From assembly GCA_000002445.1 (NCBI GenBank), contig CP000068.1, positions 608,001-672,000 of the forward strand: 64,000 nucleotides of DNA, given 5' to 3'. This document shows positions 672 through 60,857 of this stretch, piece by piece (within the stretch, counting starts at the first letter, position 1; each line of letters starts with the position of its first letter). The stretch is from Trypanosoma brucei. Taxonomy: Eukaryota. Below the pieces are notes generated by a model that saw only the letters and a list, made by a program, of their open reading frames with translations, made no database searches and was not told the origin of the DNA. A program made the position numbers and the translations under genes.

Positions 672-977
672 GTCTTTGCAGTATTGCCTTCAGTGAATTC
701 CACCACATGTGGTGAAGAAAAGTACAAGAATAAAGCAGAAAAGAGGAAGTGAGAAGTAATGTGGAATTTTTGACGGATGGTAGTTCATGTTCATAATAGA
801 AAAGTGTGTGCATATTTTGTTTTTTTTTTAAAGACGAGGTCTATCATATGTGTAAACATATACATATATATATATATAAATAAATGCATTACCTTTTCAT
901 TTGTTCTCACAGAAACACGCTTAAAATATACGCATATGCATGCATAGATATATTTATCCAAACTCCATACAGAAGTA

Positions 978-1044
978 CATATATATATATATATATATAT
1001 ATGAACACATTTTTTTTATAAATTATATATATATATATATTTAC
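978..1044. repeat. (TA)n microsatellites, one example of dozens in the window
   Basis: acatatatatatatatatatatatatatg and ttatatatatatatatatatt are read directly. Similar (TA)n runs occur at about 1903-1930, 3117-3160, 8841-8870, 14350-14390, 14820-14840, 47639-47658 and 58009-58030. Confidence 0.9.
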
Positions 1045-3126
1045 ATGTGTTTTTGTTATATACACAGTTATTTGGTTATGCGTGTGTGTTGGTGTTGGTG
1101 GTGATTTGGAATGGGTTTATCCTGTTTTTAGGTTGTTGTTGTTGCTGTTGTTGTTGTTGTTTACTCCTCTTTTCTTTTGGTATTCCAAATACTTATCTTT
1201 TCACTGCGTGCATGATATCGCGGTGTGTAGAGGAAGTGATTTTCGTATTAACGCATACACTCACGTCTATATTTCATTTTGAAAGCTTTTCTATATATTT
1301 ATCCGCATTCGTGTTTATGTTTGTGTTCATTTATGTTTTTTTTTTACCTCTTTCACAGTAACGGTGCGATTTGCTGCTTCCATTACTTCGTCATGTCATG
1401 TTATCCGGCGTCCGCCTCTCTGTGCCTGTGCCTGTGCGAATGGTGGGAATTTGAGCGGCATGACATGTCAGTTGGTTTTATTTATGTTTTTTTTTCTTGT
1501 TTTATTATTTACTCCTACCCTTTATTGTTTTTTCCTCTTTTTATTTTATTTTATTGCTTGCTTTTGAGGATAATTGATTTGAAATAATCGTTTTCCCCGC
1601 CCACCCCTCCCTTCTTTTTTTTTGTTTTTTCGTCTTTTTGAAACTGTGACTTGGCACTCATCGTCTTCAAGCTTCAACGCTTTCATTGTTACATGCGTTT
1701 TGATATTATAACTAAGTAAATAAAATTGCTTTTATATGTTGTGTTTTGATTAATTTGAATAATAGTCAAGCGGTGAGAGAAAAAAAATAATAACCCAAGG
1801 AGGGTGTAAACAACAACAAAAAAAGAGAGAGATATGGAGACACCGAATAGTGATAAAAATAAAAATAACAAAAATGAAAATGAAAATGTTGTTGTCAAAC
1901 ACACACACATATATATATATTTATATATATATATATATATACATCCATTCCAAGGTAACTATACGTGTTTTGTTTGAATGTAAATAAACACATGTGTGCA
2001 TTTGTTCAAGTATGATAACATGAGCGTGAGGAGCAGATGCAACATTAATAATAATAATAATAATAATAACAGTGATAATAATTTTCATTGTTTAATATAT
2101 ATATATATATGTTTTGTGTGCTTGTGTGTTTGTTTTATTTCACCCCCTTATTAGTCACTTACTAATTTACTTCCTACAATGGAAAGGATAGTTGTCACCC
2201 ACATGTAATATGTGTCCTTTTTTGTGTTTTTTCTTTCTTTTTTTTTTCTTTTACGTTTATGCCCTTCTGTTTGTGCTTTTTTTTTTACTTATTTTCATTT
2301 GTTTTGCTTTATTTTCTTCCCTTTTATTTCCTTTTCCCCCTCCTCTCTTACTACTGTTCTTATTTATTCTAATTGCAACAAAAGCAACAATAGTTATAAT
2401 AACAAAATAATAATAATAGTGATTTTCTTTTTCTTTTTTGATTTGTGTGCATCGGAATGGATGGATGCAAATTCATGGAGGTGAGAGGAGGAATGGAAGG
2501 AAGTTTTCTTTTCTTTTTTGAAAAGAAAGAAAGAATTTCAATGGTGATTTGCACCGATTATTTCACAATATAAAAACATCACACCAACAGACAAGATATT
2601 ATTGTTTGTTGTTTTTTCCTTTTATTTAATGTGCGGCAAATGTGTGTGGTGTGTTTGTGTGTGTGGAAAAAGAAAAAAAGTGGGGGGAGGGGGAAAATAT
2701 TTTATTTATTTTTTTTTAAAAAAAAGAAAGACGAGGAAGCAGGGGGAAAAGAGGGGGGGGTGTACAAAGGAATAATATTTTTGCTTTAGTGGGGGAAAGT
2801 CATACGAATGCACAGACCGGAAGAAAAGAAAGTAAAATGAATTAGTCGAAGCAAAAAAAAAAGATAGGAAAGGAAAGGAAGATTAGGGTTTGGGAAAGAT
2901 GAGACTGCGGCAAAATAAAGCCGAGTGGAGTTAAGACCCTTTCTTCTTTTTTTTCTTTTCTTTTTTTTTCTTTTTCCTTCTGTTTCTGTTTCCATTTCTG
3001 TTTTTCTTTTCTTTTATTTTTCATTTTTTGTCTTTTGTGCACCCGTCCGTCGCAGGTGGGGGGAAGCTACCTTTCCTCAACAGCCATTCAGGGGGGAGGG
3101 GGGGGGGATATTTATATTGCAACATA

Positions 3127-3159
<33 letters not shown>

Positions 3160-3235
3160 GATTTTGTGTGAGACTGAGGTGAAGCCACTGATGGATTCCC
3201 TCTTTGCTCAACTTTTCTTTTCCTCATATTTAATA

Positions 3236-3300
3236 TGCCCTTGTTTTGCTATTCTCATTGCTTTTTTCTTGTAACATCTTTTCTTTTATTCCATCGCAGC
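3236..3300 (+). promoter_or_regulatory. polypyrimidine tract plus AG, candidate trans-splice acceptor region for the downstream kelch gene
   Basis: A T/C-rich run (ttgttttgctattctcattgcttttttcttgtaacatcttttcttttattccatcgcag) ends in AG about 100 nt upstream of the ATG at 3407. This is the usual kinetoplastid arrangement. Similar tracts precede the other genes but are not listed individually. Confidence 0.35.
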
Positions 3301-3406
3301 AGCTGGCACAGCTGCCGAAAAGAAAAAGGAAAAAAGAAGTTTAAGAAGTCCCAAACAACTGTGTATTTGGATATACACATCTACCGATTGTATACTCTCG
3401 GTAGCA

Positions 3407-5356
3407 ATGATACCGAGGCATTATGTAGCAATGCATCGGTTGCACGATCACGGAGTCAACAAAGTAGCCATTAGTTCCAGTTCCACTGATGCGGCATTGA
3501 AGTCCTTATATACACCAGAGGAATTAAACCAACCCCTGCAACAAACCCCTCAAGCGCGCAGTGGACATTTATTGCTTTCCTGTCCACAACGCCGAAGTAT
3601 TATACTACACGGTGGACTTAGCAATGGCCCTTTAGGGCTCATGAATGACACATGGGAGTTCTTAGTTGATTATCACCGGTGGGTGCGGTTGATATGCCGC
3701 GGTGAGCCACGTAAGGAGTTAAACTCATCGGAATACGCGACACTTCAAAGCGAACGCAACACGACGCACTCCTCCATATTTAGAGATGATTATTATGATG
3801 ACAATGACAGCGACGATGCGGAAGCGTCAGTAGCGGGAGGATTAATGCCACCGAGGGCGTTCGGTCAATGTGGCGTCCTGTATGGTGAAGGGCGTTTTCT
3901 TTTTGTGCATGGTGGTGTCACAACATTAGGGCGTACAACTTCTGATGCTTTTCGACTTGATATTGAGAGGAGGTCGTGGGCGCGGATACCTCTTCTGCAG
4001 CCGATGCCCTCCATGTGGGGTTCTGCTGCGCAGGTTGTGCGGCTTCCAGTAAAAGCGCTCGTCGCCGCCGGACAGATCAGCACAACCGGTAATAGTTGTG
4101 AAGAAGAAGAACAAGAAGGCCGCGTTGTGGAGGTCGTCGTTCTCTTTGGTGGTATGCATCAGGCCAACGCCTTCAACGACACATACTTTTTGTACCTCAC
4201 GCAACCGCCGCCATCAGAAGGTCGTACATCGTATAAGGAAGGTGAAGGACGTGTCGTGGTGAAGCTGCCACCAGTACCAAAGAAGATCTTTCCCGGGCGG
4301 CGTCGGGCTTGCTCTGTTGTTTGTAACAACTACTTCCTTTTTATCTTTGGTGGACGGGACGAGAATTACTTCTATAATGATATGTGGATCCTAAACACCT
4401 TAACGAGGCAGTGGGTGATGGTACGGGGTGAAGTCCCGCAGCTTTACATGCAGGAGTTTTTTCGCTTTCCCTGCAGAACCGCACCAGGGATACGCATTAT
4501 GGGACTTGTAGAAGAGATACTTCGCTTCCGGCGCAAGGCGGTAGGCACAGACGGTAAAGATAATCCGCATAAGTCACGTCGTTACAACAGTTCCGCGTAT
4601 TGGCGGACGGGCGCCACAATGGTCAATTATGGAACTGAGGTATTTGTGTTTGGAGGTTTCACCATGGATCAGTTCGGCTACATCATAACGCATCGGGACG
4701 TGCACGCGTATGATTATGTGCATCACGTGTGGCGGGAAGTAGAGGTGGAGGAGGGTCGCTCGCTTCCGCCATTTCCACCGGGTTATTTTCGATCTTCTTG
4801 TTTGGCTGGTGAGGAGCCACAACCCCAGTGGGAGTTGCTGCGGGGAATTCCCTCAATGTTTTCAGAGGGCCGCACGATGGCGGCGATGTGTCGTGATCCC
4901 ATACGACCCTCCTTACGCTTCTTTATGTTTGGTGGTCGTATGGAAGATGATCCCTGTGGTGACCTTTTCGACGTACGTATTCGTGTAGAATTCCAAGGGC
5001 CACCACCTGCTAAGGATCAAATGTTGGAACGTCAACGGCAGTTGGCTCGTTTATACTTCACCACACCGCAAGCGCGAGCGCCATGGGAAATGTCACCGTG
5101 GGGTAGGCGAAGCCTTTTGCTTCAATTGCTTGATTGGACGCGAGCAGTAGTAACGGAAGGAGAGGCGCTTAATGCAATTCAAAATATGAGGCCTCGGACA
5201 TCTCGGGAGGTGCCACCATTACATAAGGAATGTGCGGCTCATGCAACTGAAGTGGAATCGACGTTACGCAATAAATTGAGTATTTTGCCGAAAGTAGTGA
5301 ATGAACAGGTGTTGTTGCCTCAACCATTTGTGTTGCCCGAGGAACTGAGGGGTTAA
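3407..5356 (+). CDS. kelch-repeat (beta-propeller) domain protein
   Basis: 649 aa ORF. Six spaced kelch-type blades are visible by eye: ILHGGLSNGP, FLFVHGGVT, VLFGGMHQAN...DTYFL, FLFIFGGRDENYFYNDMWIL, VFVFGGFTMD, FFMFGGRMED. Moderate GC and coding-like. Confidence 0.7.
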   Translation: MIPRHYVAMHRLHDHGVNKVAISSSSTDAALKSLYTPEELNQPLQQTPQARSGHLLLSCPQRRSIILHGGLSNGPLGLMNDTWEFLVDYHRWVRLICRGEPRKELNSSEYATLQSERNTTHSSIFRDDYYDDNDSDDAEASVAGGLMPPRAFGQCGVLYGEGRFLFVHGGVTTLGRTTSDAFRLDIERRSWARIPLLQPMPSMWGSAAQVVRLPVKALVAAGQISTTGNSCEEEEQEGRVVEVVVLFGGMHQANAFNDTYFLYLTQPPPSEGRTSYKEGEGRVVVKLPPVPKKIFPGRRRACSVVCNNYFLFIFGGRDENYFYNDMWILNTLTRQWVMVRGEVPQLYMQEFFRFPCRTAPGIRIMGLVEEILRFRRKAVGTDGKDNPHKSRRYNSSAYWRTGATMVNYGTEVFVFGGFTMDQFGYIITHRDVHAYDYVHHVWREVEVEEGRSLPPFPPGYFRSSCLAGEEPQPQWELLRGIPSMFSEGRTMAAMCRDPIRPSLRFFMFGGRMEDDPCGDLFDVRIRVEFQGPPPAKDQMLERQRQLARLYFTTPQARAPWEMSPWGRRSLLLQLLDWTRAVVTEGEALNAIQNMRPRTSREVPPLHKECAAHATEVESTLRNKLSILPKVVNEQVLLPQPFVLPEELRG

Positions 5357-8010
5357 TCGGAGTGACGTACTGGAAATTAGATCCTCCTACATACACATAC
5401 AGAAGCACGTCTGGCGTTTTATTTTTATTTTTTTTTATTAAAAAAAAAATTGTTCACCGTATTTTTGCCGCTGAGGTGCCGTCACTCGGAGTGGATATGT
5501 TGATACATGAGGAAGGAGTGCTCGAAACGTCTTTTTTTCTTTTTTCTTAAGCGCTGACTATTATGGCTGCTTAATAATTGTGTTCCACTCCCTTACTTAT
5601 TCCGAGAAAAAGAAAAAAAGGAAGACAGGGGGAAAAGAGCCTCCAGCACTGTGTCGTCCACACGCTCCTGCAAAAGAAGAAATAATAAAAAATACGGATA
5701 CGTGCAAGTTGTTGTATGTGGAGGAGGATGAGGAGGAAGTGAATACGTCTGGGTTGCTTTTTTTTTTTCAAAAAAAAAAATATTATTATTATTATTACTT
5801 TATTCTCGTTTTCTGTGTCGTCTACTACTCAACATGATCCTTTATATATATATATATTCATACCAACCCATATCCTTCCCTCATTTCCTTTTCTTCCTTT
5901 TTAGGAACAAGTGGTGGGCCTCATTAGCGGAAGTTTGAACGGCGCGGAAATCGACTAAAGGCGCCGAATGGAGGAATGAACCGGAAAGTAAAAGTAAAAA
6001 CAAAACAAAACAAAATAAGGCAGAAGGAAATAGAAGAGTATTTATTTTATTTTTATGTTTATATATTTTTGTAGTAGAGTGAAGTATTGTGTGTTGTGAA
6101 GCGTAACGAGTTCGAAGGCTACCGCGTGATGCAGTGAAATGAAATGCACGTTTGGAAGCTTTTGCGGGAAAAATAAGGTTGGAGGAGGAGGAAAGAAAGA
6201 GATTAGAAAAGAAGGAAAGGGTAGGGGGGGGAAGGGAACAGTATTTTTGTTGTTTCATTTGTTAAATTTGATTACTTCCCTTTCAACTGCTGCTCTTTTT
6301 CTTCTTCCGTCTTTGTGCATTTCCTCTGTAAATCTATTTTAGCTCCCATTTTCTTTTTATTCTTTTTATTTTGGGGGAAGAAAAGGGAGGTGTTTACTTT
6401 GCTTGTCTGTCCAGAGGAAGATGTACCCTGGAAATATTCATATATACTAATATATACATATATATGCATGTATGATTTGGTACGAGTGTATCATATCTTT
6501 ATGCGCGTTTAGTTATTTGATTTTTAGGGAGCATAATTTCGTTTTCTGACGCGGGAATTTGTGGATAAATATGCTTTTGTTTTATTTCATTTCATTTCAT
6601 TTTATCTTATTTTATTTTATTTTGCTCTGTTCTGTAAGAGAGCGGGAGGAGGGGGAAAAAAAAAGGGTGGGGGCATGGAATTATTTTTCAATTGTTTTGT
6701 TCAGCTTCCCGTTAAAATATTGGCCTCAATGTGGGCGCCATCGACGAGTGGAAATGACAAGTTAAGAAAAAGCAGGTAGAGAATGAGTGTTACAAACGGT
6801 AGTTTATGTTGTTTATGAGCATAAACCCAAAACGTATACGTCAAAAGAAAAGTAGAAAAAGATCGGATGGCATCTCTAACGTGTGGAGGAAATGGAATGA
6901 AATGAAGTGGTTTCTTCCCTTCATCACTTTTGTTGTTGTTGTTGTTGTTTTTGCAACGAGTGGCGGCTTCCGTTTGTCCGCGTTTTTTGATAGTTTGTAT
7001 GCTCCAAAGTAAACAAAGTAAATAAATGTGGTTTGTATTTGTTTCTACTTTCCTTTCCTTTTCCATGCAAACACATTGCACCGTACTACATTGATCTGTT
7101 GATTGTACACCTCCCTTCCGCGTGTTATTGTTATAATTGTGATTTTGCGATGTGGAAAAGAAAAAAAAATTAAGAGGAAGATGAAGAGGAAATATACGAA
7201 CAACCCTTATTGATATTTTACTCAATGAAATGCATGTTATCGCCTGTGTTCCCCCCTCTTTTTTTTTTTAATGTTTCCCATTCTCTTCTGTTGTTGGTTG
7301 TGTTCCTGTATTGTTATTTTTTAGTATCCATTTCCATTTCAATATCTGCCCCACTGTATTGCCGCATTTCTTGTGAGTCTTCCCATATTTTTCTACTTTT
7401 CAGCATTTTATGGGAGGCGAGTTGTGTTGATGTTATTTTTATTTTTTGAAAAGGGATTCCTTTCTTACGCTTAGATTGTCAGGTGAAGAACCGAGTTATT
7501 GAACTGTTTTTTTGTGTGTGTGTGTGCGTGCATGTGTGTTTGCGAAAAGAGGAGAAAAGAAAGCTACAACAAAAAAAAAAAGGAAGGTGCGTTACACTGC
7601 AGGTGGTGTTAGAAATAAGCTGATGAGGGTTTTAAAAAAACCGGCGGGATTGTGAATGAAAAGTGAAAAGTATTTTTGTCTACATTTTTTTCTCGCGCCG
7701 ATGTTGTGTCCCCAAATAACTCCTGGTGGTATTTTACACATGCCTAAAACACATTCGTATACGTATAAGTTTACGTATTTGTATATTTGTGAATGTCCAT
7801 ATGTCTGTTTCGTTTTTACTCGGATGGCAATTATTTATTCTTTCCTTCCAACAATTTCTACTTACCGAATATATATATATATATATATTTCACGTATTAT
7901 TGTGTATTTACATTTGGCATAAGGAAGAATCCACAAAGAAAAAAAAAAGGAGAGAAAGAGAAAGAAAGAGAGAGAGAAAGAGAAAAGAAAAAAAAAGAAG
8001 CAAAGGAGGT

Positions 8011-8805
8011 ATGACGCAATCGCAATCGCAAGGACATCCACGGGTTGGGCCTGCGCCCCTCTGTATCGATTACCCCACGCAACAGCCCCTTTGCCCAGAG
8101 TTTACGTATACCACTGATATCATCGCGTTAATGGCGCCACCTCGCATAGCCGCTAAGTTTTCACCATGTTTTCGCAAATACAGTTGGGACCCGTATGCGG
8201 TGCTGCTCACAGATCACGATTTAGAACGTGTAAAGAAATCATACAGGCGTGCAACGGCACCTCCCGCCATCGCCTCGTCACCAACGCGGCAACCCCCTCA
8301 GCAAAATCCTGCTGATATGGATATCAATGATAGTCACCATAATCACAATATTGATCATTCGCCATCACGGCTGCCACAGCTTTGCCAACAACAACAACAA
8401 CAACAGGAACAGCAACAACAGGAACAGCAGGAGCAGGAGCAAAGCCTACAACAGCAACATCAACAACTGAAACTACAGCAACAGCAACAGCAGGAGCAAC
8501 AGCAACTAAAGCAGCAAAGCCTCCAACAACAACAACAACAACAACACCAACAGCAGCAGCAGCGACTGAAACGACAATCATTACAACAACATCAACATTA
8601 TCATCAACATCATCATCGTCGATATCACCCGTATGCTCAACTGCATCACGGCGGTGGCCATCAGAGCCGCGGGGTGCATCATCCGTCATGGCATAACCGA
8701 CAGCCGGTGACTTGGAGGGCAATGGGACCCAATCAAGATTCTGAATTCAAATCTGCAGGAGGGCGTTCAGCTGCTCGAGGTTCCAGCGCCCGCTTCAGTC
8801 GCTAA
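8011..8805 (+). CDS. Gln-rich low-complexity hypothetical protein carrying a K-Y-SWDPY motif
   Basis: The track ORF 7726-8805 begins inside an AT-rich microsatellite. The in-frame ATG at 8011 (MTQSQSQGHPRV...) marks where the composition becomes coding-like. The protein has a long poly-Q/E/L tract and the motif FRKYSWDPY, which is shared with the gene at 13052. Confidence 0.5.
   Translation: MTQSQSQGHPRVGPAPLCIDYPTQQPLCPEFTYTTDIIALMAPPRIAAKFSPCFRKYSWDPYAVLLTDHDLERVKKSYRRATAPPAIASSPTRQPPQQNPADMDINDSHHNHNIDHSPSRLPQLCQQQQQQQEQQQQEQQEQEQSLQQQHQQLKLQQQQQQEQQQLKQQSLQQQQQQQHQQQQQRLKRQSLQQHQHYHQHHHRRYHPYAQLHHGGGHQSRGVHHPSWHNRQPVTWRAMGPNQDSEFKSAGGRSAARGSSARFSR

Positions 8806-10294: not shown

Positions 10295-10298
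<4 letters not shown>

Positions 10299-10331
<33 letters not shown>
10299..10331. repeat. (ATT)n microsatellite
   Basis: attattattattattattattattattattc is read directly. Related (TAA)n lies at 2044-2076, (GTT)n at 1128-1160 and 6926-6946, and (AAATA)n at 9030-9050. Confidence 0.9.
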
Positions 10332-13051: not shown

Positions 13052-14161
13052 TTGTTTTCACGGAGTCCACGAATAATGCGCCCCACCGGAGTACGCTGTC
13101 TTGCTTCACCCCTCAGCTTAATGAGAGTTACCGGAACCCCCAACACCGGCCCCCGTGTGTTGTCGCCTGATGGTACGAAATTTTCATGGGATCCCTACAG
13201 CGGTGCATCCGTTGATGGAAGTGAAGTTTTCACCCAGTCACCTCATCTCGCCGCGCAGTTCCCCGGTCACGCGTCTCCTATTCAACTCCCTCCGCCCAAT
13301 GTGGCGTCGGATGGTGTCTCTTTTGCATCGACACTTAATTGGCAATCTCAAGGGGATGGCGGAGCAGCATATGATTCCTCAGTTGTTGGGTACTGGGAAG
13401 AAACCGGTCCCAACCGTGGCGCACTGCGACTTGGTTCCGATGAACAACAACAACAGCAACAGCAACAACATCAGTTATATCGGACAGGCCCACTCGCGCA
13501 AACGTTCTTCCAGACGACCGGCAGCGGTGCACCTCCCTTCGACAACGCCGTTGTTACGCATGGTGATGCTAACTTTAATTCAGGTTTTGGTGTGGTGGCA
13601 TCGCCGCATCGCCCATCATCGCGAGCGGGACGTTACGGCACTTCACGTGGTGTTTCTTTATCCGCCTCTCGAGGAAGATCTTTTGAATCCACTCCATTAT
13701 GGGGCCACGGGCAATCCGGAGCCGCAGAGAGAAAGCTTCCATTTAGACGTATGATCCCTCCGCCCGTCCCTTATGAACTTGCATTGCGTCAACTCTCCCG
13801 TTCGGGTCTTGCCGATCCCGAAAGGGTTCTCGAAGGAATTCTTCGTCACTGGCACAGGTCTACACAAGTTGCAGTCGGTGTACTTCGTAGCGAAGCTGCT
13901 TCTTCAGTTGAGGAAAGTTGCCCGTCCCCTCCTTCAGGAAATGACCGCGAAGCAATAGTCGAATGGGTGACACGTTGCGAGGGATGGTGGCAACAGAATT
14001 TTGGAACCCAACCCCGCAGCGGTGCTGACCGGCAAAATGCGGCTCATACGTTTAATGGAAATCGGGGACACAGATCCAATGATGGAAGGCGTCCTCATAC
14101 ATCAGGGGCTGCAAGTAGGAATAATCATGCATTCGCCGGCATGAACGGAAGAAGGGGGTGA
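13052..14161 (+). CDS. hypothetical protein carrying a K-F-SWDPY motif and a poly-Q tract (possible paralogue of 8011-8805)
   Basis: 369 aa ORF on the cluster strand. The N-terminal GTKFSWDPY motif and a (Q)9 tract mirror the architecture of the 8011 gene. This is the last gene before the strand-switch region. Confidence 0.5.
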   Translation: MFSRSPRIMRPTGVRCLASPLSLMRVTGTPNTGPRVLSPDGTKFSWDPYSGASVDGSEVFTQSPHLAAQFPGHASPIQLPPPNVASDGVSFASTLNWQSQGDGGAAYDSSVVGYWEETGPNRGALRLGSDEQQQQQQQQHQLYRTGPLAQTFFQTTGSGAPPFDNAVVTHGDANFNSGFGVVASPHRPSSRAGRYGTSRGVSLSASRGRSFESTPLWGHGQSGAAERKLPFRRMIPPPVPYELALRQLSRSGLADPERVLEGILRHWHRSTQVAVGVLRSEAASSVEESCPSPPSGNDREAIVEWVTRCEGWWQQNFGTQPRSGADRQNAAHTFNGNRGHRSNDGRRPHTSGAASRNNHAFAGMNGRRG

Positions 14162-17100
14162 GAACAGAAGATTAAAAATGAAAAAGAAAAAGAAAAAAAA
14201 GGGGGGAGAATCAACAAGGTGGACATGTTGATTTCCCCCCCCCTTTTTTTTTCTTTTTCTTTTTTTGTTCTTCTTTTTCGACATGTGTCTGTTGTGCCCC
14301 TTCCTTCTATTCTCTCTTCACTCCACGCCTCCCCTCTCCACACACACATATATATATATAATATAATATATGATATATATATATATATATACATTTCTCC
14401 GCACCGGCTTTTTGTCGTGTGTTTATTTTTCATTTTTCTCTTTTTATTTAATTTCCTTTGTGAAGTTTCAACCAAAACAACACCAAACCATTTAAAAAGA
14501 AAAAAGATTTTTCTACCTTTTTTTGTTTTAACCTTGCGCGTGTGTCTTTTCCATTTTGGTTCTACCTGTACCTGTTGGTTCGTTTTTTTTTTTCTTTCCA
14601 CCTTTTAGACACTTTGGCGGATAATGATCTTCAGTGCTAAAATTGAAAATAACAGGAGTTGATCGAAAGTCTGATTTTTGTTTTCATTTTTTAAAAAATA
14701 TATTTTTGATATATTTCCCCTCCTTTTTTTAAAAAAGAAAAAGATGTCAGATAAGTGGGATAGAGGAACGACGGAGATAAATATAAATAAATATATATAA
14801 ATATATTAATACATGTGTTTCAACATATATATATATATATATTTACATGTACTTGTTTGTTTATATGTATTTATGCGCATAACAATAGCAGCGGAAGTGC
14901 GCTCGAGTGTGTAACTAGATGTTGTGATGGGAAAGAGAAAGGGGAAGAAGGGTGGGGGAAAAAAAGAAAGAAAGAAAAAACAGCGATCAATAAAGTTAAT
15001 AATAATTCCGCTAAGGGTTTACTCACAGGTGGCGTGTGTACGCAACCTGGGTGATGCAAGTGAAGAGGAGAAATTAATAAAATAAATTAATAAATTTATA
15101 AATATATAAATATATAAACATGTATGTATATATGTATGTATGTTTTCGACTGGGTTAGAGTAGATAAAGTGGATAAAACGGGAAAAGGTGAAAAAAAAAA
15201 ATACTGGATGACGAAGTGAAGAAGTGGAAGACTTGTTTTGTTTTTTTTTGTTTGTTTGTTTTATATCAACCATAATTTTGTTTCTTTTTTCATTTTCAAT
15301 CTGTTAGGTCAAATTAGGATGTTTTGTTTCTTCATTAGTGAAATATGTTTACTTATTTCATTTTCGTTTGTATGATCGCCTGTTTGTTTTCCATTTTGTT
15401 TTTGTTTTGGAAAAAAAAACTTTTGGTGGCGAGTTATATATTTCATATATTTTTATACTCTTTTACTACACTTCGTTTTTTTTTTCTTTGGGTGGAGGCC
15501 GCGTTTGTGTTTCACAGCAGCAAAAAAAAAAAAAAAGAATTCAATACCAAGAGCGATATAAAGTATATATATTATATACATATATATATATTATATTTTA
15601 TATTTTATATGTGTATATATGTGTGTGTGTGTGGATATGTGTGTGGATGCGTTGGGGGTTTTCCTTTTTTTGGGAGTGGTGTGTTTGTGTGTGTGTGTGG
15701 GAGAGAGAGAGAGAAAAAAAAAAATAAATAAATGGAAAATTAGGAAAAAGTGCAGGAGATTCTGTCGACTCTTTTCTAAGAAAAAAAAAATATATTCACA
15801 AGAAAGAAAAGAGAAAAAGTAAAAGATGAGGGAACAGTCCCTCTTTTTGTTTGTTTATTTTTCTTACTTTCTCTTTTTTTTTTTCATGATCTTCCTTCCC
15901 TTTTGGTTACAATCATCTTCCGTTTTTACCTCTTTTTTTAAAAAAAATTTTCCTTCTCTACTTTTTTTGGCGTCCCGCACGTCTGTCTGAGATTTCCCAT
16001 TAATTGTCCATTTAATCAATTTTTTTTAATAAAAAAAAGCGTTTTTTTTTCACTTTTTAGTAATAATAATTATTATTATTTTGTCTTTTTTTTCTTTTTC
16101 TTTTTCCTGGCTTCTTCCCATCCTTTTATTATTACTACTATTATTATTGTTATTGTTATTACCATTATTATTATTATTGTTATATTATTACCATTATTAG
16201 CATTTTTATGGTTATTATTATTATTATTATTATGTTCATTACAACACTCTTCCCCCCCCCCATATCCTCTCTCTTTTTTTTTTCCCCTCCCTCCCTCTTT
16301 CTTCTCCTCCTCCTTCCCTTTCTTTTTTTTTTCATCTCGACTTATTTTGTTACGAGATTTTTTGTTTTTGTTTTGTTTTTAATCCTTTTGGTTTTCACTC
16401 CCCAAATTAGGGCGGTTACGTAAAAAAAAAAACAAAATTTTTTTTTTCTTTTTATTTCCCCCTTTTTTGTTTTTTTTTTGGGTTTCTCTTTTCTTTTGTT
16501 TCTTTGTTGTTGTTTTTTTGTATTTTTCTTCTTATGAGGAGCGAAAAGGGCAGGGGAGAGGATTAAGGGGGAAAATAGGAAGAAGAAAAAATAAAAATAA
16601 AGAAACGAAACAAAAGGAAAGAAAATTAATAAATGGATAGATGAAAATAATCAACAACGATTTTTTTTTTTCCCCCTCCCCTTCCTAACAAAAAAAGAAA
16701 AAGGGGGTGCGGATTATTGTAATGACGACAGCGATAATAATCGCAATAAAAAGAATAAAATGTATAAATATATATATATATATATGTCTAAGCGCTCACG
16801 TTCGCAGTGTATCCCGTGATAATTTTACCTAAAAGAAGGTACGTTAAATAGGAGGAAAAGAAACAAACGAACATACACACACGCAAAAAACAAATAACAA
16901 ATAAGAAACAAACGAAAAGAGAAAAAGCGGAAATAATGAATGATAATACTTCTTGAGTTTGGCTTGTGTTGTGTGGTGCCTCACTTGTCAAAACACGACA
17001 AAACAAAGCAAAGAACTGTAAAAAACAAAAAAAAAGAAAAGAAAAGAAAAGAAGAACGGAAGAGGCGCGGTATAACAATGAAGAGCAAACGGATGTGGTT

Positions 17101-19859
17101 TGTTTTTTTTTTTTTGTGTGTGTGTGTTTGTTTGCCGCTGCTTCCCACGTTTCTTTATCTTTTTTTTTTAGAGGTAATAATAGTGTTGTTTTTGTTGTTG
17201 TTGTTGTTTTTTTTAATGCGAGAAAAGCGGAAGGAAAATTAGGAAGGAATGCGTTTAATTTCTTTTTTTAAAAAAAAAAAATAATAATAATCGTCATTAT
17301 TAATTTTTTTTGTCCCCGATGATTCCCATCCGTCACCATTTTTTTTTCTTTCCTTTTTTCTTTTTTTTTTTTGTTTATGTATTATTCGATTCGGTAAGTG
17401 CACAAAAAGACACCTTCGGGAACCGAAACCCTTAGTGGTAACCTGTTGTGGATTTTCCTTTTTTTTTCTTTTTTTTTTTGAAAGGAAAAGACAAAAATAA
17501 AAATAAAGGACAGAGCGGTGATTAAGTGAGCGATTAAAAAAAAAAAATAGAAGAAAAATATATACGAAGACATAGGAAAGAAACAAACATATATATATTA
17601 ATATGTTATATTTATATTATATTTATATATTATACAAGTTTCAATATGTATTCCAATCCTAAACAAGAGATGATAATGCACACACCGAAACGCAGAAACG
17701 GGTGCAATAATAATAAAAATAAAAGTAAAATAACAATAATAATAATAATAATGGTGGTGGTGATGGTGATGATTATGGAAATTGTTGTAAGACATTTATT
17801 ATTACAATAATTATTATGATCATCACAAGGCCCAATGAAGGGAGGGGGAAAAAAAAAGAAATAAAGTGAAACTTATAAAAACTCATTCCTTCCTATTCGA
17901 TCTTCCTACGAACATCTTTCAACGTAAGTGATAAAATTTGAGAAGTGAAAAAAAAACGAAAAGGAGACGCCAGTTAACACTTTCATGAAGTGGAGTTACT
18001 ATCTTGTTGTTACGAACCCGTGTTTTGTTTTTCCTCTTTCCTTCTCTATCTCTCTTTATTTTTATTTTTGTAACAAAACAGAAATAAATAAATAAGTGAG
18101 GTTTTTTAAATTTTAATTTTATTCATTGATGGATATATTTATATATTTATTTATATATGTTTATATTTATTTTTATTTTTCTCCCCCTTTCTTCCATTTC
18201 TTGAATTAGCAGCGGTTCCCACAAATACAAATACAAATACACCTCAACCTTAAATGATTATTTGGTGATGGTGATGATGATTAGAGTGGTACGAGTGACA
18301 CAACAACAACAAAAAAGAAAAAAAAGAAAAACACATAACATGACATAACATAAAATAAAATAAAATGCAGAAAAGGAAAAAGAAAAAGAATGCAAAGATA
18401 GAAAAGAAATAAAGCGAAGTGGCCGCCACTTTTGTTATCGATAAACGGAACCAATGCAAAAGCACAGGGTGAAAGGGACAGGAAAAAAAAAAAGGGAAAA
18501 GCGAAAACGAAAAAGGAAAAAAAAAAGTGACTAAAGGTATGTTTTTACATATTTCTCTGTATAGGAACTTATGTCGCGAATCGCCTGAAGAAAAAAAAAA
18601 GGGGCTAAAGAAAAATAGAAAGAAAGAACACAAAATGAACGAGGGAAATGAAAAGGTTTTTTTTTAAAAAAAAAGAAGCAGCAATCCGCTTCACTGTCAT
18701 CAGCTTTTTTTTTGTTTCTATTATTATTATTATTATTATTATGTTGTCTTTTACTGTTGTTGTTGTTGTTTCTTTCCCGTTTCTCCTACCTTATTTTCCT
18801 GGTCGTCGCTGATGCTGGAAATTCAAGAAAACACACACACAATTGAAAAAAAAAAAGCAAAAGCAATTAAATCAAAGGTGGTCACGGTTTCGCCAGGGTG
18901 ATGATCATATTTACAATAATTTTATCTTAGAAAGCTCTGGTGGTTAAATACAAGATGGAAGAGGGGATGGGAAAAAAAAAAAAGGAATACCGTGAACATA
19001 TATTACAGAGACCGGCTACTTGTGTAAATAAAAAGTGAAAAAAAAATCTTTTTTTTTTGGGGGGGGGTGGAGGGAGGGGGTTTCTCCCTATATTTATTTA
19101 TATTTGATATTTTTGTACCTTAAGATGCGGTATCGGTTGGGAGAATGGAGAGAGTTGGTGGGGAAAAAAATTGGGTCAAACATCAGAAAATGGAATGTGG
19201 GAAATTCGTATCAAACACTTAAGCGAAATTATCCAAATTTAACAAAGAAAAAAGGGAAAGTACTTTTTATAAATTTGTGATAGTACAAATGTTAACATGA
19301 ATAATTAATGAACCATAAACAAATGAATTTTAAATTCATTGGTGTTTGTACTTATATATATCTATATATTTACGGGTTTGCCATGTAGGCACTTTCTTGA
19401 GTTGAAAGGATGAAATTTCAGGGGTGGGGAGAAACAGCCGTTAAGGAGGAGTAAATAAAATGAATGAAAACAAAAACAGATGTATATAAACGTGCGTGTA
19501 AGCATAGCTGCATATTTATATTTGTGTGTTTTTGTTTTGTTTAAGTTCCTCCCCCTTTTTTGGCGGCGTACACCACGTAATTTTTCTCTTTTCCTCCGAT
19601 TTGTGTTGTGCGTGCGTATGTATGTGTATGTGTATGTGTGTGGTGGGGAGCAAAGCAAACGGAGGAGACGGGGAAATGGAAGGAAAATATTTAAAAAAAA
19701 AAGAAAAGACAAAGTAGAAGTGAGAGAAAGTAAAGAAACATAAATATAATGACACACCACCTTCCCATCTACCGGCTCCGTTTGAATTCTTTCAACTTTT
19801 CCATCCCTCGTTATTTTCAGGGAGCAGCTGTTGTTATCATTGTTATTACCTGTGATTGA

Positions 19860-19893
<34 letters not shown>

Positions 19894-22058
19894 GATGTTA
19901 TTCGTGTTCCCCTCCCTTTCTGTCCCACTTTCCCTCCTCTCTCTCTTTTTTTTTTTTTACCTCCGGTATTTCTGGTTTTCCGCTTATGTTTTTTCTTTCG
20001 AATTTCACTAAAGTAAACCACAACATCACAGTTATTTGATGTTGAACACCACCACCACCCCTTCCAAAAAAAAAAAAAAAAATCGAAAGCGGAGATAATG
20101 ACGATGAATGCGAGGAGAAGGTGTGATCGACGTTGCGATGGAAATGAATAGGAAAAAAAAAGGGGAACAATGATGTTAAGGAAAAAAAGCAGAAGAGAAA
20201 GAAAATGATGTCCTTCAGAGTGAAAACAACAGCAATAGTGACGATATGATAATAATTAACAAAAACAAGGATGGTGATGGCAATGATGATGTGAGAGAAA
20301 AGGAGAGAGAAAGAGTAGTGGAAATAAAGCGAGAGCCCGTGTACGAAAAAGAAGAGAAAAATTATATATGTATGCGAGAATATGTGCCTGTTTTCCCCCT
20401 ACAAGCTTTTTTTCCTTCTGCGCTTATCACTATTATTCATTTTTTTTATTTTTGCGCCATGGTGGTAGCGGATTTTAGTTAATGAAACGGGAAAAGAATA
20501 TATTGTTGTTTCTTCCGCTCCACCGACCTTACTTTTTTTTCATTTTTTTAAATTATTTTTGAAAATGCCATCGTTCGTTCTTTGATTAATCCGTCTTTTT
20601 TCCCCCGTCGTTTCGTTTGTCTTGTTTTGTTTTTCACTCGGTTTCTGTTTAACTTATTTCGTAGTGCAGGGTGAGGAGGTGGTCTGGGCCAATGAATAAT
20701 AATGACCATGCTAATGATAATAACGACAATACCAATTGGGGCAGTGGAACGCCGCTCCGGGAACATATAGCGAAGGACGAGGGCGGATAAGCGCAAGCAG
20801 AAGCAAAACTAGGGAAGGAACGTGGCGAGGCGGGCATATTCAAAAAAAACACATGAGAGTGCGCACAATGCCGTTTGCACGCATGAGGATACATGCATAT
20901 ATTTTTATATGTATGTTGTTTCACTTAAAATATATATTTACATATACGTATATATTTTTAAAAGAATGCGTGTGTCCCGTCATCTCGTCGTCACACGTAG
21001 CCACCGGCTCGTGGACATGCGAGTGAAAACGGGTGCGGATGAGCATGCATGTGCGGTTGTGCGCGCGGGCGCGACTGCGTATGAATGTTTGCGACCGCCT
21101 GAACATGTTCGCAAATGTGTGTCCGGTGCCGGCGCACATTTGTGTGATATGATCATGGGTGATGGTGCGCGAGCAAAAGCATTCATCCAGCAACATGTAT
21201 GGTGCGTCGGTGGAAATACCGAGTTCCTCCAAGGGAACGTGAGCAGGGTCTCATGTTTTTTGAGGAAACCGGCCCGCCGGCGCCCGCGCTCCGGCGGGTG
21301 CACACTCGCATCATGGGATCACGCTTTAGTGTGCGTTTTTGAATATGCCTGCCACAACCCCGATCCAGTAGTTTTGTCTTTTCCTAAGCGTTGTAGCGTG
21401 CGCGGGGCGGGTCCCGTCATATACACGAGGACGTGCGCCTTCGCGGATGGAAATGGGTGGGGGTTTTGTGTGTGTCGTTTCCTTTAGCGATTAGCATTTG
21501 GTGGGCTTCGCTGAGGATGCAAAACGTCAGCACACCCCCCGCTTATTCCTATCTTGGAATGAGAAGAAAAGCACGCGCGCGTTTCGATCGCGGCCCTTTG
21601 GCGGTTGTTTGCCCTGTATCGGCCCTTCGATGCGATCGTGTCTTGTTCCTTTCACGAAGCACGCCGCTCATCCCCCCTTTGAAATTTGGGCTCAAATCGC
21701 CGTGTCGGTTTCCGGTTCGCGGTAGTCCCTTCTTTTCCCACCCCAAGAGGAGTCCCCAAGCTTTTTACCCCTTTTTAAAATTAAAATAATAATTTTCGGC
21801 CCTGGCGATCCCCGACCCTCGACTTCAGTAATCACCGAGTCCCATCGACCTGCTTTCTTCCACATCAAATTTTGAGCACCCCCCCCCTTTCTGCTGCTTT
21901 TTGCTGATACGCCCCCCCGGCCGCCCGCCGCTTTCTCCTCCGTCTCTTAACATCACCCCCCTCCCCCCATTCCTCCTTTTCTTTCATAGCATAGGTTATG
22001 CCCGCCCGGCCCCGCGCCCTTCCGCCACCACCCCCCCCCCGAACCGGCGCCCGTCACG

Positions 22059-40793: not shown

Positions 40794-41180
40794 CGCCGCC
40801 TTTAAAGAGAGTATCTAGGTGCGCGTGTATATGTGCGCGTGGGTTTATAGGCTTAAATCTATCTTTTTTCTATGATTCCAACAGCCAGCGCCGTTGTTCC
40901 TCTCGAATCTAACGAATGTAAGGCCTCGAAAGTTAAGTAGGAGAGAAAAATTAAACAACAGCTATAATAAGGGCAGTGAAGTAAATTAAAGTGAGGTGTC
41001 AACCTAAGTGGACGTTGCGTTGGCACGTGGGTAACGGATACAAAGGGTTGCATGCACGCTCAGCTACAGCGCAAACGCTATAAGCGCCAGGTTACTGCGG
41101 TCAGTTGTTAACACCTCTCTTTCTCTTGCACTCTTTCAGGTTTTAGACGACAGTCTTCACCGAAGCAGCTAAGTAAAAAA

Positions 41181-42290: not shown

Positions 42291-42650
42291 CTGTGAGAAG
42301 CCTTAACGGCCTACGTAGGATAAGTACAGAGAGAGATGAGGTCAAAGGAAATACCCTTCGAACAAACTATACCCGAACATGAAGCAGCCTTTCTTCACAC
42401 GAGGAGTGTTTAGTGGTGCCGGCTGCGGGACTCGCTGACGGACTGAGGGCCTCAAAAGAAAGGACCAGTGAGTCTCTCTCAACATGCTGTTAGCAATTAA
42501 ACAACTCTTCTTTAGGCAAACCTAACTAACGAGACGGCGGATGGGTCTTAATCTACTCAGTCCACCGAACGCAACAACCAAAGGCAATGCAGCCCATTTA
42601 CACTTACATGTACCACTTCCCGCACACGAGCTTACTGCACCTGCCTTACA

Positions 42651-60700: not shown

Positions 60701-60857
60701 TTCCCCGTTTTGTGTACATGCATTCTCTACAAATCGGCGTTCTCCATTACATCAAGCCCTTGTTTTGACGTTGTTGTCTTCTCTTCCCCACATGCAAATA
60801 CTCCCGCCACCCGAAAAAAACTCACACACACAAACAGGTTCTGCGACCCATGCCCCC

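What the first reader, a model, noticed from the sequence alone, without database searches (positions are those of the whole stretch)
672..22040. Compositional asymmetry: the '+' cluster has 2.7-8 kb homopolymer/microsatellite spacers, the '-' cluster is compact
Spacers between credible '+' genes are 2.7 kb (672-3406), 2.65 kb (5357-8010) and 4.2 kb (8806-13051). After the last '+' gene there is about 7.9 kb of homopolymer and microsatellite DNA. These tracts are full of poly(T), poly(A), poly(G)/poly(C), (TA)n, (ATT)n, (GTT)n, (GT)n and (AAAG)n.

Most '-' side spacers, in contrast, are 0.35-1.8 kb.

This looks like two different chromatin or compositional compartments abutting at the strand-switch region. 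It could also be a lineage-specific expansion of simple-sequence DNA. Such tracts are prime sites for replication slippage, and may influence termination or nucleosome depletion.
Basis: seen in the sequence. Interest (0 to 1): 0.5.

Follow-up and report, generated by a model that had tools for sequence, protein, structure and literature searches.

The report
Long untranslated regions between trypanosome genes
The long A/T-rich, repeat-filled gaps are real, but they lie inside a continuously transcribed gene array of Trypanosoma brucei chromosome 5 and are best read as the unusually long untranslated ends of a few regulator mRNAs, which is a known feature of this parasite.

Summary
The window is T. 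brucei TREU927 chromosome 5, 608,001-672,000, where two polycistronic units converge. The asymmetry is real. '+' spacers are 2.7, 2.65, 4.27 and 6.5 kb, with GC 31-36% and 4-9% long homopolymers. '-' spacers are 0.36-1.8 kb (one of 3.1 kb), with GC 43-53%. The final 1.4 kb of the reported range (20,651-22,040) is GC-rich, not simple sequence.

The compartment reading fails:
- Coding GC is the same on both sides.
- Spacers upstream in the same '+' unit are short.
- The composition break at 20.65 kb lies inside the '+' unit. '+' transcripts continue to at least 29.0 kb, through three 2.49-kb GC-rich repeats that each carry a RIME-like retroposon.

Published splice sites land exactly on AG dinucleotides in the window. 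Of spacer 2, 79% is the 2.1-kb 5'UTR of Tb927.5.1990, with 25 uORFs, RNA coverage and almost no ribosome footprints.

The spacers upstream of the Kelch gene and downstream of Tb927.5.2000 are also long in other trypanosomes. The two middle spacers expanded in the T. brucei lineage. Indels between subspecies are frequent and sit mostly in simple tracts.

Best reading: long regulatory UTRs. This kind is already known. Mature mRNA ends are mapped for only about 2.4 of 16 kb.

The parts
1..671 (+). C-terminal part of the Tb927.5.1970 CDS (275 aa in full)
   Evidence: 100% match to P0037, named Tb927.5.1970
672..3299 (+). Spacer 1. Presumed 3'UTR of Tb927.5.1970 plus the processing region. GC 0.32, with (AT)n, (GTT)n, (TAA)n and a 90-nt polypyrimidine tract at 2940-3027
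   Evidence: Composition, TRF, candidate internal acceptor sites at 1569 and 3056. The mature 3' end is not mapped here.
3300..3406 (+). 5'UTR of Tb927.5.1980; spliced-leader acceptor AG at 3298-3299
   Evidence: Vasquez 2014 Table S4 gives Tb927_05_v4:611300 as the 5' end. This lands directly after a polypyrimidine tract and AG in the window.
3407..5356 (+). Tb927.5.1980, a Kelch-repeat protein listed as a client adaptor of cullin TbCul-E
   Evidence: Pfam Kelch, exact protein match, PMC12816148
5357..5904 (+). 3'UTR of Tb927.5.1980 plus the inter-mRNA gap
   Evidence: Bounded by the CDS stop and by the mapped acceptor site of the next mRNA at 5905
5905..8010 (+). 5'UTR of Tb927.5.1990. It is 1,895 nt to the annotated ATG at 7801 and about 2,106 nt to the ATG actually used at 8011. 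It carries 25 uORFs.
   Evidence: Table S4 of PMC3973304: 5'UTR RNA 31.7 RPKM (bloodstream form) and 13.2 (procyclic form); footprints 2.7 and 0.1, against 346 and 20 in the CDS. Translation starts at the second AUG. AG lies at 5903-5904.
8011..8805 (+). Tb927.5.1990 CDS, a poly(Q) protein that interacts with MKT1
   Evidence: PMC3985637; ortholog search
8806..9008 (+). Annotated 203-nt 3'UTR of Tb927.5.1990. It ends 3 nt after a genomic A9 run, so this poly(A) site may be unreliable.
   Evidence: Transcript end 617008 in Table S7 of PMC3973304; sequence
9009..13075 (+). Rest of spacer 3, not assigned to a mature mRNA. It is either a longer 1990 3'UTR or the 5'UTR of Tb927.5.2000. An A/G-rich block runs to about 9,840, then a T/C-rich block to about 11,900.
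   Evidence: Skew switch at 9877 with four A8 runs upstream and two T8 runs downstream; candidate acceptor site at 10862; no conserved ORF
13076..14161 (+). Tb927.5.2000 CDS, described as essential and of unknown function. It has a conserved FSW(D/N)PY motif and a conserved C-terminal region.
   Evidence: Exact match, PMC11260167, alignment with syntenic orthologs
14162..20664 (+). Spacer 4, 6.5 kb. Presumed long 3'UTR of Tb927.5.2000 with six internal acceptor-like sites. Alternating A-rich and T-rich blocks.
   Evidence: Composition; bounded by the mapped acceptor site at 20665; internal candidates at 14466, 14609, 16357, 16539, 17172 and 18210; no ORF with non-repetitive sequence and no conservation; spacers of 4.2-6.3 kb in the same position in T. 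vivax, T. cruzi and T. theileri
20665..21487 (+). Tb927.5.2010 transcript. It is trans-spliced and shows RNA of 48 (bloodstream) and 24 (procyclic) RPKM, with essentially no footprints. The GC-rich block starts here.
   Evidence: Table S4 of PMC3973304; composition
22045..29470 (+). Three tandem copies of a 2.49-kb, 60%-GC unit. Each holds a 506-bp RIME-like retroposon (23575-24080, 26062-26567, 28550-29055) flanked by the 12-bp duplication ATGACCGCCACG. The block is transcribed on the '+' strand.
   Evidence: Repeat families; target-site duplications, 6 matches against 0.14 expected; Kolev transcripts Tb5.NT.46-52 at window 21,990-29,044
33497..62822 (-). Compact '-' unit of 12 CDSs: Tb927.5.2020 MutL-C-like, a methyltransferase, a Myb protein, GMP reductase, a kinesin, an RRM protein, a G-patch protein and others
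   Evidence: ORFs, Pfam, exact matches, spacer statistics

Best explanation
The '+' spacers are not empty intergenic DNA and not a chromatin compartment. They lie inside one RNA polymerase II polycistronic unit. They are mostly the very long 5' and 3' untranslated regions of the unit's last few genes:
- Tb927.5.1970.
- Tb927.5.1980, a Kelch adaptor of a cullin ligase.
- Tb927.5.1990, an MKT1-binding poly(Q) protein.
- Tb927.5.2000, described as essential.

Trypanosomes have no gene-specific promoters, so these mRNAs are controlled after transcription. Three routes are available. The choice of splice-acceptor and poly(A) site sets how much UTR is kept. uORFs act in the 5'UTR. Proteins bind U-rich, AU-repeat and polypyrimidine elements. 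The simple-sequence tracts are the raw material of such elements, and replication slippage keeps remodelling them.

Shown:
- Transcription runs through and beyond the spacers.
- 79% of spacer 2 is a mapped, untranslated 5'UTR.
- In procyclic forms the RNA level of that 5'UTR equals the CDS level (13 vs 11 RPKM). In bloodstream forms it is one third of the CDS level (32 vs 92 RPKM).

Inferred:
- Those RNA levels reflect stage-dependent acceptor-site choice.
- The remaining roughly 13.7 kb is retained in mature mRNAs, notably as a roughly 6-kb 3'UTR on Tb927.5.2000.
- The tracts act as regulatory elements.
For: Identity: exact protein matches place the window on TREU927 chromosome 5. Four published acceptor-site coordinates, shifted by 608,000, each fall directly after a polypyrimidine tract and AG.

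Tb927.5.1990:
- The 5'UTR is 1,895 nt with 25 uORFs, among the 16 highest uORF counts in the table.
- It has RNA coverage but footprints are about 100 times lower than in the CDS.
- The mRNA is 8-fold higher in bloodstream forms.

Transcription continues downstream. Tb927.5.2010 is trans-spliced at 20,665, and Kolev transcripts cover 21,990-29,044 on '+'. The same catalogue has no independent novel transcript inside the AT-rich spacers.

No hidden genes were found. There are only low-complexity ORFs, and no six-frame conservation with T. vivax, T. cruzi or T. theileri.

Long spacers occur at the same gene positions in other trypanosomes and are equally simple in T. cruzi and T. theileri.

Literature:
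- T. brucei 3'UTRs reach 5-8.5 kb, hold many low-complexity sequences, and are longest for RNA-binding proteins and kinases. Database poly(A) sites often under-call them.
- DRBD18 masks internal polypyrimidine tracts and sets the 3'UTR length of more than 1,500 mRNAs. Tb927.5.2000 is a top marker of DRBD18-depleted cells.
Against: Mature mRNA ends are documented for only about 2.4 of the 16 kb. The one annotated 3'UTR here, for Tb927.5.1990, is just 203 nt. That leaves 4.07 kb of spacer 3 and all of spacer 4 unassigned.

Substitution density between subspecies is about the same in '+' spacers (16-25 per kb) as in a '-' spacer sample (about 21 per kb). There is therefore no sign of broad sequence constraint.

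Polypurine and polypyrimidine tracts are about equally common on both strands. That is not what splice signals alone would give.

The '-' unit also encodes likely regulators (Myb, RRM and G-patch proteins) with short spacers. 'Regulators have long UTRs' is therefore only a tendency.
Confidence: 0.7

Rival explanations
1. Neutral simple-sequence bloat. The spacers are transcribed but functionally inert. Their length and composition are set only by replication slippage and weak selection. Whether or not they end up in mature mRNA has no consequence.
For: Indel density is high, at 7-14 per kb, with 82% in homopolymer or microsatellite context. Substitution density is like that of other spacers. 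Two of the four spacers are 2-10 times longer in T. brucei than in T. vivax or T. cruzi. There is no nucleotide conservation with other species beyond short low-complexity matches.
Against: Total lengths hold within about 4% across three Trypanozoon assemblies despite the indel flux. The spacers upstream of the Kelch gene and downstream of the 2000 gene are long in species that diverged long ago. The 1990 5'UTR shows stage-dependent inclusion and carries 25 uORFs. Comparable UTRs, such as that of RBP10, have been shown experimentally to hold many regulatory elements.
Confidence: 0.2
2. One reading: two chromatin or compositional compartments, one per transcription unit, meet at the strand-switch region.
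For: The difference in spacer GC and length between the two sides is clear-cut within the window.
Against: CDS GC does not differ between the sides. Upstream spacers of the same '+' unit are ordinary: 0.45-2.2 kb with GC 0.38-0.45. The composition boundary at 20.65 kb lies inside the '+' unit, 9-12 kb before the switch, and is followed by 60%-GC repeats also transcribed on '+'. The '-' side has a 3.1-kb spacer.
Confidence: 0.03
3. Replication initiation zone. The alternating A-rich and T-rich blocks exist because the region hosts DNA replication origins. In T. brucei, origins map to intergenic sites with poly(dA) upstream and poly(dT) downstream.
For: Four A-to-T polarity switches have A8 upstream and T8 downstream within 0.5 kb, at 9877, 15231, 17063 and 18684. 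This pattern is found at 37% of SNS-seq origins against 9% of intergenic controls. Origins cluster, lie near poly(A) sites and have low nucleosome occupancy.
Against: No origin coordinates were available to check. The same A-to-T polarity is expected at any junction between a poly(A) site and a polypyrimidine tract, so it does not discriminate. Origins are spread over all intergenic DNA, so one falling in 16 kb of spacer would be unremarkable.
Confidence: 0.1
4. Hidden genes. The spacers contain unannotated small or fast-evolving protein genes, or independent long non-coding RNA genes.
For: Gene callers do miss genes here. T. cruzi has an unannotated Tb927.5.1990 ortholog inside a '2.4-kb spacer'. 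Spacer 4 has six strong acceptor-like sites. DRBD18 depletion is known to release trans-spliced RNAs derived from 3'UTRs. The gambiense annotation places short ORF models in these spacers.
Against: ORFs in the spacers are low-complexity and mostly antisense. There is no six-frame conservation with three other trypanosomes. Footprints in spacer 2 are about 1% of the CDS level. No Kolev novel transcript lies between chr5 564,959 and 629,990.
Confidence: 0.08

Closest known systems
Very long regulatory 3'UTRs of T. brucei regulator mRNAs: RBP10 (7.3-8.5 kb), DRBD12 (8.4-kb mRNA), ZC3H22 (over 5 kb)
   Same: They are kilobase-scale and AT-rich, and full of (AU)n, U-runs and internal polypyrimidine tracts. 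They lie within a polycistronic unit and belong to genes with regulatory roles. Their internal processing sites depend on DRBD18. Tb927.5.2000 responds to DRBD18 depletion.
   Different: Four consecutive genes are affected here, and one of the long regions is a 5'UTR (2.1 kb, 25 uORFs) rather than a 3'UTR. The 3' ends of the 1970, 1990 and 2000 mRNAs have not been verified, and no regulatory element has been mapped.
T. brucei replication origins defined by stranded SNS-seq (poly(dA) upstream, poly(dT) downstream)
   Same: Intergenic location, an A-to-T (and G-to-C) polarity switch, and A8/T8 runs within 0.5 kb at four sites.
   Different: There is only a sequence resemblance. No nascent-strand, nucleosome or R-loop data were examined for this locus.
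Convergent strand-switch regions (transcription termination regions) of trypanosomatids, often with retroposons
   Same: Two units converge in the window, and RIME-like elements sit near the junction.
   Different: The AT-rich spacers are not the termination region. '+' transcripts continue 8-9 kb past them. No tRNA or Rfam RNA gene is present.
Genome compartments of trypanosomes (core versus subtelomeric or 'disruptive' regions), and isochores in general
   Same: A sharp change of base composition along the chromosome.
   Different: Both sides are core, syntenic, single-copy genes with the same coding GC. The contrast is limited to the non-coding parts of four or five genes.

Membership tests
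Long untranslated regions within a trypanosome polycistronic unit | Lies between co-directional CDSs of one transcription unit, with expressed genes further downstream on the same strand | tested here: met
   There are '+' CDSs at 3407, 8011 and 13076. Trans-spliced '+' RNAs occur at 20,665 and from 21,990 to 29,044.
Long untranslated regions within a trypanosome polycistronic unit | Mapped spliced-leader and poly(A) sites place the sequence inside a mature mRNA | tested here: inconclusive
   Met for 5905-8010 (5'UTR of 1990), 3300-3406 and 8806-9008. No mapping data were obtained for 672-3299, 9009-13075 or 14162-20664.
Long untranslated regions within a trypanosome polycistronic unit | RNA coverage without translation; no conserved coding potential | tested here: met
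   Spacer 2 has RNA of 13-32 RPKM and footprints of 0.1-2.7. All spacers lack six-frame conservation and hold only low-complexity ORFs. Footprint data were seen for spacer 2 only.
Long untranslated regions within a trypanosome polycistronic unit | Low-complexity content typical of characterised long UTRs: (AU)n, U-runs, internal polypyrimidine tracts | tested here: met
   compared with the descriptions in PMC8982893 and PMC9380746
Long untranslated regions within a trypanosome polycistronic unit | Demonstrated effect on mRNA stability or translation | not testable with these tools
   This needs reporter or deletion experiments. The only support is correlative: stage-dependent expression of 1990.
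SNS-seq replication origin of T. brucei | Intergenic site with poly(dA) upstream and poly(dT) downstream (A8/T8 within 0.5 kb) | tested here: met
   Sites at 9877, 15231, 17063 and 18684; criterion
SNS-seq replication origin of T. brucei | Divergent short nascent strand peaks; low nucleosome occupancy; R-loop overlap | not testable with these tools
   Origin coordinates are not among the held supplements.
Transcription termination region at a convergent strand switch | Transcription of the unit ends within the region | tested here: not met
   '+' transcripts are recorded up to 29,044, well past 20,650. The switch lies between about 29.0 and 33.5 kb.
Compositional compartment or isochore | The composition shift affects coding and non-coding DNA over the whole domain or unit | tested here: not met
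   CDS GC is 0.51-0.54 ('+') against 0.48-0.58 ('-'). Upstream spacers of the same unit have GC 0.38-0.45 and are short.
RIME (ingi-related non-autonomous retroposon); applies to the elements at 23575-24080 and their copies | About 500 bp, A-rich 3' tail, 12-bp target-site duplication, conserved 5' signature of about 77-79 nt | tested here: inconclusive
   A length of 506 bp, the A-run tail and the 12-bp duplication are met. The 5' signature match rests on my recollection of the ingi/RIME/L1Tc 'Pr77' sequence, and a literature search for the string found nothing.

The most novel reading that the evidence does not exclude
The spacers may be more than long UTRs. They are built from alternating A/G-rich and T/C-rich blocks of 0.5-1.5 kb.
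- The A-to-T switches match the sequence topology of mapped T. brucei replication origins.
- The T-to-A switches are marked by abrupt T(n)A(n) junctions. These outnumber A(n)T(n) junctions 15 to 1.
- The junctions are positionally conserved among Trypanozoon subspecies.
- They are absent from the equally A/T-run-rich syntenic spacers of T. cruzi and T. theileri.

The region could therefore be a DNA-level element, such as an initiation/termination zone for replication or a structural element, placed at the 3' end of a transcription unit. T(n)A(n) would then be a Trypanozoon-specific signal.
Probability: 0.1. Interest if true: 0.55.

Novelty: already known. Interest (0 to 1): 0.22.

Why it matters
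For the scan: kilobase-long AT-rich, homopolymer-laden gaps between same-strand ORFs in a trypanosome window are expected. They should be read as UTRs, not as anomalies or compartments.

For trypanosome biology the locus has modest value. It is a compact example of four neighbouring genes that all carry very long untranslated regions, including one of the most uORF-rich 5'UTRs in the genome. Two spacers are ancient and two expanded recently. That makes it a natural test case for whether UTR length itself is selected.

The work also corrects annotation:
- Tb927.5.2000 is labelled 'T. brucei spp.-specific'. It has a syntenic ortholog in T. vivax and syntenic homologs in T. cruzi and T. theileri.
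- Tb927.5.1990 shares a conserved W(D/N)PY motif with Tb927.5.2000, and T. cruzi has an unannotated 1990 ortholog.

Tried and rejected
- Rfam and tRNA scans of the whole window found nothing. No small RNA genes explain the spacers or mark the strand switch.
- I looked for documented UTR lengths of Tb927.5.1970, 1980, 1990 and 2000 in the supplements of five papers (PMC11260167, PMC8982893, PMC9380746, PMC10090614, PMC4845500). Files were not held, the genes were absent, or there were only unlabelled read counts. Only the Vasquez 2014 tables were informative, and two of them were truncated when stored.
- TREU927 gene positions are not in the contig look-up. I used T. b. gambiense for the upstream part of the unit.
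- The T. congolense ortholog has no contig on record, so the closest outgroup could not be compared.
- A literature search for the retroposon 5' signature string found nothing relevant.
- Paralogy of 1990 and 2000 by BLASTP is limited to the short motif region, E=0.001. I do not claim they are paralogs, only that they share the motif.
- Counts of the RBP10 motif UA(U)6 and of (UAU)n are unremarkable or not strand-consistent, so no specific binding protein is proposed.
- A marginal hit of a T. cruzi spacer segment to the 1970 C-terminus (E=6e-4 in a tiny database) was judged too weak to call an ortholog.

Full report
**What the window is.**
Exact protein look-ups place the window on Trypanosoma brucei brucei TREU927 chromosome 5. 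The matches are:
- Tb927.5.2000 at 13076-14161 (+).
- A Kelch protein at 3407-5356 (+).
- A MutL-C-like protein at 33497-36106 (-).
- GMP reductase at 48344-49819 (-).
- A kinesin and an RRM protein further on.

The first ORF is the C-terminus of Tb927.5.1970. Published transcript coordinates fix the offset at 608,000. The 5' ends given for Tb927.5.1980, 1990, 2010 and 2020 each fall on the base after a polypyrimidine tract plus AG. The window is therefore chr5:608,001-672,000. It holds the converging ends of two RNA polymerase II polycistronic units. No tRNA or Rfam RNA gene is present.

| Feature | '+' spacers | '-' spacers |
|---|---|---|
| Length | 2,735, 2,654, 4,270 and about 6,490 nt | 360-1,795 nt, plus one of 3,102 nt |
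| GC | 0.31-0.36 | 0.43-0.53 |
| Bases in homopolymers of 8 nt or more | 4-9% | 0-2.4% |
| Bases in microsatellites | 6-10% | 0-4.5% |

The differences are significant, at p=0.006 for length and p=0.005 for GC. The simple sequence is far above first-order Markov expectation.

One correction is needed. Simple sequence stops at about 20,650. The stretch 20,651-22,040 has GC 0.53 and belongs to a different, GC-rich block.

Two further assemblies, T. b. gambiense and T. b. equiperdum, show the same spacers within about 4%. Assembly collapse or expansion is therefore excluded.

**What the spacers are.**
Ribosome-profiling supplements (Vasquez et al. 2014) give direct data for part of the region.
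- The Tb927.5.1990 mRNA starts at window 5905. Of spacer 2, 2,106 of 2,654 nt is its 5'UTR.
- That 5'UTR carries 25 uORFs, among the 16 highest uORF counts in that table.
- RNA covers it at 32 RPKM in bloodstream forms and 13 RPKM in procyclic forms.
- Ribosome footprints are 2.7 and 0.1, against 346 and 20 in the CDS.
- Translation starts at the second AUG, at 8011.
- In procyclic forms, 5'UTR and CDS RNA levels are equal. In bloodstream forms the CDS level is three times higher. This suggests added use of a proximal acceptor site in the stage where the mRNA is 8-fold more abundant and better translated. That last step is my inference.

Downstream of the 6.5-kb spacer, Tb927.5.2010 is trans-spliced at 20,665. 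It is present as RNA but not translated. Kolev novel transcripts Tb5.NT.46-52 cover 21,990-29,044 on the '+' strand. The whole AT-rich region is thus transcribed through, and the strand switch lies between about 29.0 and 33.5 kb.

The same catalogue lists no independent novel transcript between chr5 564,959 and 629,990, so none lies in the AT-rich spacers.

ORFs in the spacers are low-complexity runs. Six-frame comparison with the syntenic loci of T. vivax, T. cruzi and T. theileri finds no conserved coding segment.

What I could not document are the mature 3' ends of the 1970, 1990 and 2000 mRNAs. The only annotated 3'UTR, 203 nt for Tb927.5.1990, ends three bases after a genomic A9 run. The literature warns that database poly(A) sites are often too proximal.

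**Comparative evidence.**
Gene order is conserved in the three other trypanosomes: Kelch gene, then a 1990-like gene, then a 2000-like gene. All 1990-like and 2000-like proteins carry a [YF][ST]W[DN]PY motif.

| Spacer | T. brucei | T. vivax | T. cruzi | T. theileri |
|---|---|---|---|---|
| Upstream of Kelch | 2.7 kb | 0.67 kb | 3.7 kb | 3.5 kb |
| Kelch to 1990 | 2.65 kb | 0.67 kb | about 0.4 kb | 2.1 kb |
| 1990 to 2000 | 4.27 kb | 0.97 kb | 1.4 kb | 0.9 kb (assembly gaps) |
| After 2000 | 6.5 kb | 6.3 kb | 4.8 kb | at least 4.2 kb |

T. vivax lacks a 1970-like gene upstream of its Kelch gene. In T. cruzi and T. theileri the long spacers are just as rich in homopolymers and microsatellites. 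The T. vivax 6.3-kb spacer is not, with GC 0.50 and 1.2% homopolymer.

Two long spacers are therefore ancestral and tied to particular genes. Two expanded in the T. brucei lineage.

Upstream in the same '+' unit (T. b. gambiense), spacers are 0.45, 0.85, 1.4, 2.2 and 0.77 kb with GC 0.42-0.38. The feature is local to the last four or five genes and is not a property of the whole unit.

**Turnover.**
Between TREU927 and the two other Trypanozoon assemblies the '+' spacers carry 7-14 indel events per kb. Of these, 82% lie in homopolymer or microsatellite context. Substitutions run at 16-25 per kb. A '-' side spacer sample has about 21 substitutions but only about 0.6 indels per kb. Slippage is clearly active. 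I saw no overall sequence constraint.

- The compartment idea fails. Coding GC is equal on both sides. The boundary lies inside a transcription unit, 9-12 kb from the switch. Other spacers of the same unit are ordinary.
- An influence on termination is not supported, because transcripts continue beyond the tracts.
- Lineage-specific expansion holds for two of four spacers.
- Slippage is supported.
- Nucleosome depletion was not tested here. It is plausible from published work on trans-splice sites and origins.

**Most likely mechanism.**
Established trypanosome biology provides the frame. Transcription is polycistronic, and mRNAs are cut out by trans-splicing coupled to upstream polyadenylation. 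Regulation is post-transcriptional, and 3'UTRs reach 5-8.5 kb. These long UTRs are dense in low-complexity sequence, and the longest belong to RNA-binding proteins and kinases.

The genes here fit that frame:
- Tb927.5.1990 is an MKT1 interactor.
- Tb927.5.1980 is a Kelch adaptor of a cullin ligase.
- Tb927.5.2000 is described as essential and is a top marker of DRBD18-depleted cells.

DRBD18 masks internal polypyrimidine tracts and promotes distal poly(A) sites. Spacer 4 contains six strong acceptor-like sites.

I therefore read the spacers as long UTRs whose retained length is regulated, with confidence about 0.7. A purely neutral origin of their length and composition remains a serious partial rival (0.2).

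**A less ordinary reading that is not excluded.**
The spacers consist of alternating A/G-rich and T/C-rich blocks. Four A-to-T switches carry A8 upstream and T8 downstream. This matches the topology reported for T. brucei SNS-seq origins.

T(n>=5)A(n>=5) junctions outnumber A(n)T(n) junctions 15 to 1 in the window (p=5e-4). They are positionally conserved among subspecies, with sliding boundaries. They are absent from the T. cruzi and T. theileri spacers despite many A and T runs there. I have no explanation for this bias.

**Comparison with known systems and novelty.**
The closest known cases are the RBP10, DRBD12 and ZC3H22 long UTRs. This is the same kind of feature, so it is already known as a kind. 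The particulars here are a cluster of four genes, a 2.1-kb uORF-laden 5'UTR, and a mix of ancestral and recently expanded spacers. Interest is low to moderate.

**Dead ends.**
Several supplement searches, the TREU927 and T. congolense contig look-ups and a sequence-string literature search gave nothing.

Noticed in passing
window 22045-29470: There are three tandem copies of a 2.49-kb, 60%-GC unit, 98-100% identical. Each contains a 506-bp RIME-like retroposon (23575-24080, 26062-26567, 28550-29055) flanked by the 12-bp duplication ATGACCGCCACG. The retroposon therefore inserted before the unit was amplified. The block is transcribed on '+' (Kolev transcripts Tb5.NT.46-52). The nature of the remaining roughly 2 kb of the unit is unknown; it has no Pfam hit.
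   Followed up: partly
window 8011-8805 and 13076-14161; L004 12541-12897 and 13867-14946; L005 14575-15885; L006 14627-15499 and 17142-18380: Tb927.5.1990 and Tb927.5.2000 share a conserved N-terminal [YF][ST]W[DN]PY motif with their syntenic counterparts in T. vivax, T. cruzi and T. theileri. The 2000 family also has a conserved C-terminal region (LRFxKMLPPPV...RWY...CPSPP...CxxWW). The motif resembles the MKT1-binding consensus (H/N)(D/E/N/Q)PY. The MKT1 interaction of 1990 was attributed to its poly(Q) tract, so W(D/N)PY might be the real or an additional contact. Tb927.5.2000 is labelled 'T. brucei spp.-specific', which is not correct.
   Followed up: partly
L005 (T. cruzi JABDHM010000046.1) about 12586-13188, +: An unannotated ortholog of Tb927.5.1990 (FSPCFTKFSWDPYAPV; tblastn E=2e-11) lies inside what the gene calls show as a 2.4-kb spacer.
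   Followed up: yes
window 672-20650 (15 sites, e.g. 2709, 5758, 9274, 10204, 12041, 17263, 18657): T(n>=5)A(n>=5) junctions outnumber A(n>=5)T(n>=5) junctions 15:1 in the window and 12:0, 12:1 and 5:0 in related Trypanozoon loci. The sites are conserved in position, but the T/A boundary and run lengths differ between subspecies. The bias is absent from the syntenic T. cruzi and T. theileri spacers. No explanation was found.
   Followed up: partly
window 9877, 15231, 17063, 18684: These are A/G-rich to T/C-rich polarity switches with A8 runs upstream and T8 runs downstream. They match the sequence pattern published for T. brucei SNS-seq replication origins. The strongest opposite switch, at 16539, is a 540-nt pyrimidine block followed by AG and purine-rich sequence, which looks like a strong splice-acceptor site with no ORF behind it.
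   Followed up: partly
window 20665-21487: The annotated gene Tb927.5.2010 is trans-spliced and present as RNA (48 RPKM in bloodstream forms, 24 in procyclic forms). It has essentially zero ribosome footprints, so it is probably a non-coding transcript rather than a protein gene.
   Followed up: partly
window 5905-8010: RNA over the 1990 5'UTR equals CDS RNA in procyclic forms (13 vs 11 RPKM). In bloodstream forms it is one third of CDS RNA (32 vs 92 RPKM). This suggests stage-dependent choice between a distal and a proximal splice-acceptor site.
   Followed up: no
window 3407 vs 3641: The Kelch gene Tb927.5.1980 is annotated as 571 aa in TREU927 (ATG at 3641). It is 649 aa in T. b. gambiense and T. 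equiperdum (ATG at 3407). The mapped acceptor site at 3300 is compatible with either start.
   Followed up: no
window 29471-33496: This roughly 4-kb stretch has GC 0.50 and no ORF over about 165 aa and no Pfam hit. It lies between the last '+' transcript end (29,044) and the last '-' CDS, so it must contain the actual convergence point and the 3'UTR of Tb927.5.2020.
   Followed up: no
window 57756-60857: This is the one long spacer on the '-' side (3.1 kb, GC 0.45, 2.4% homopolymer). It is long but not AT-rich, which shows that length and composition are separable.
   Followed up: no
window 8386-8561: The poly(Q)-coding CAA/CAG array of Tb927.5.1990 differs by three in-frame indels (18 nt) between TREU927 and each of the other two Trypanozoon assemblies.
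   Followed up: no
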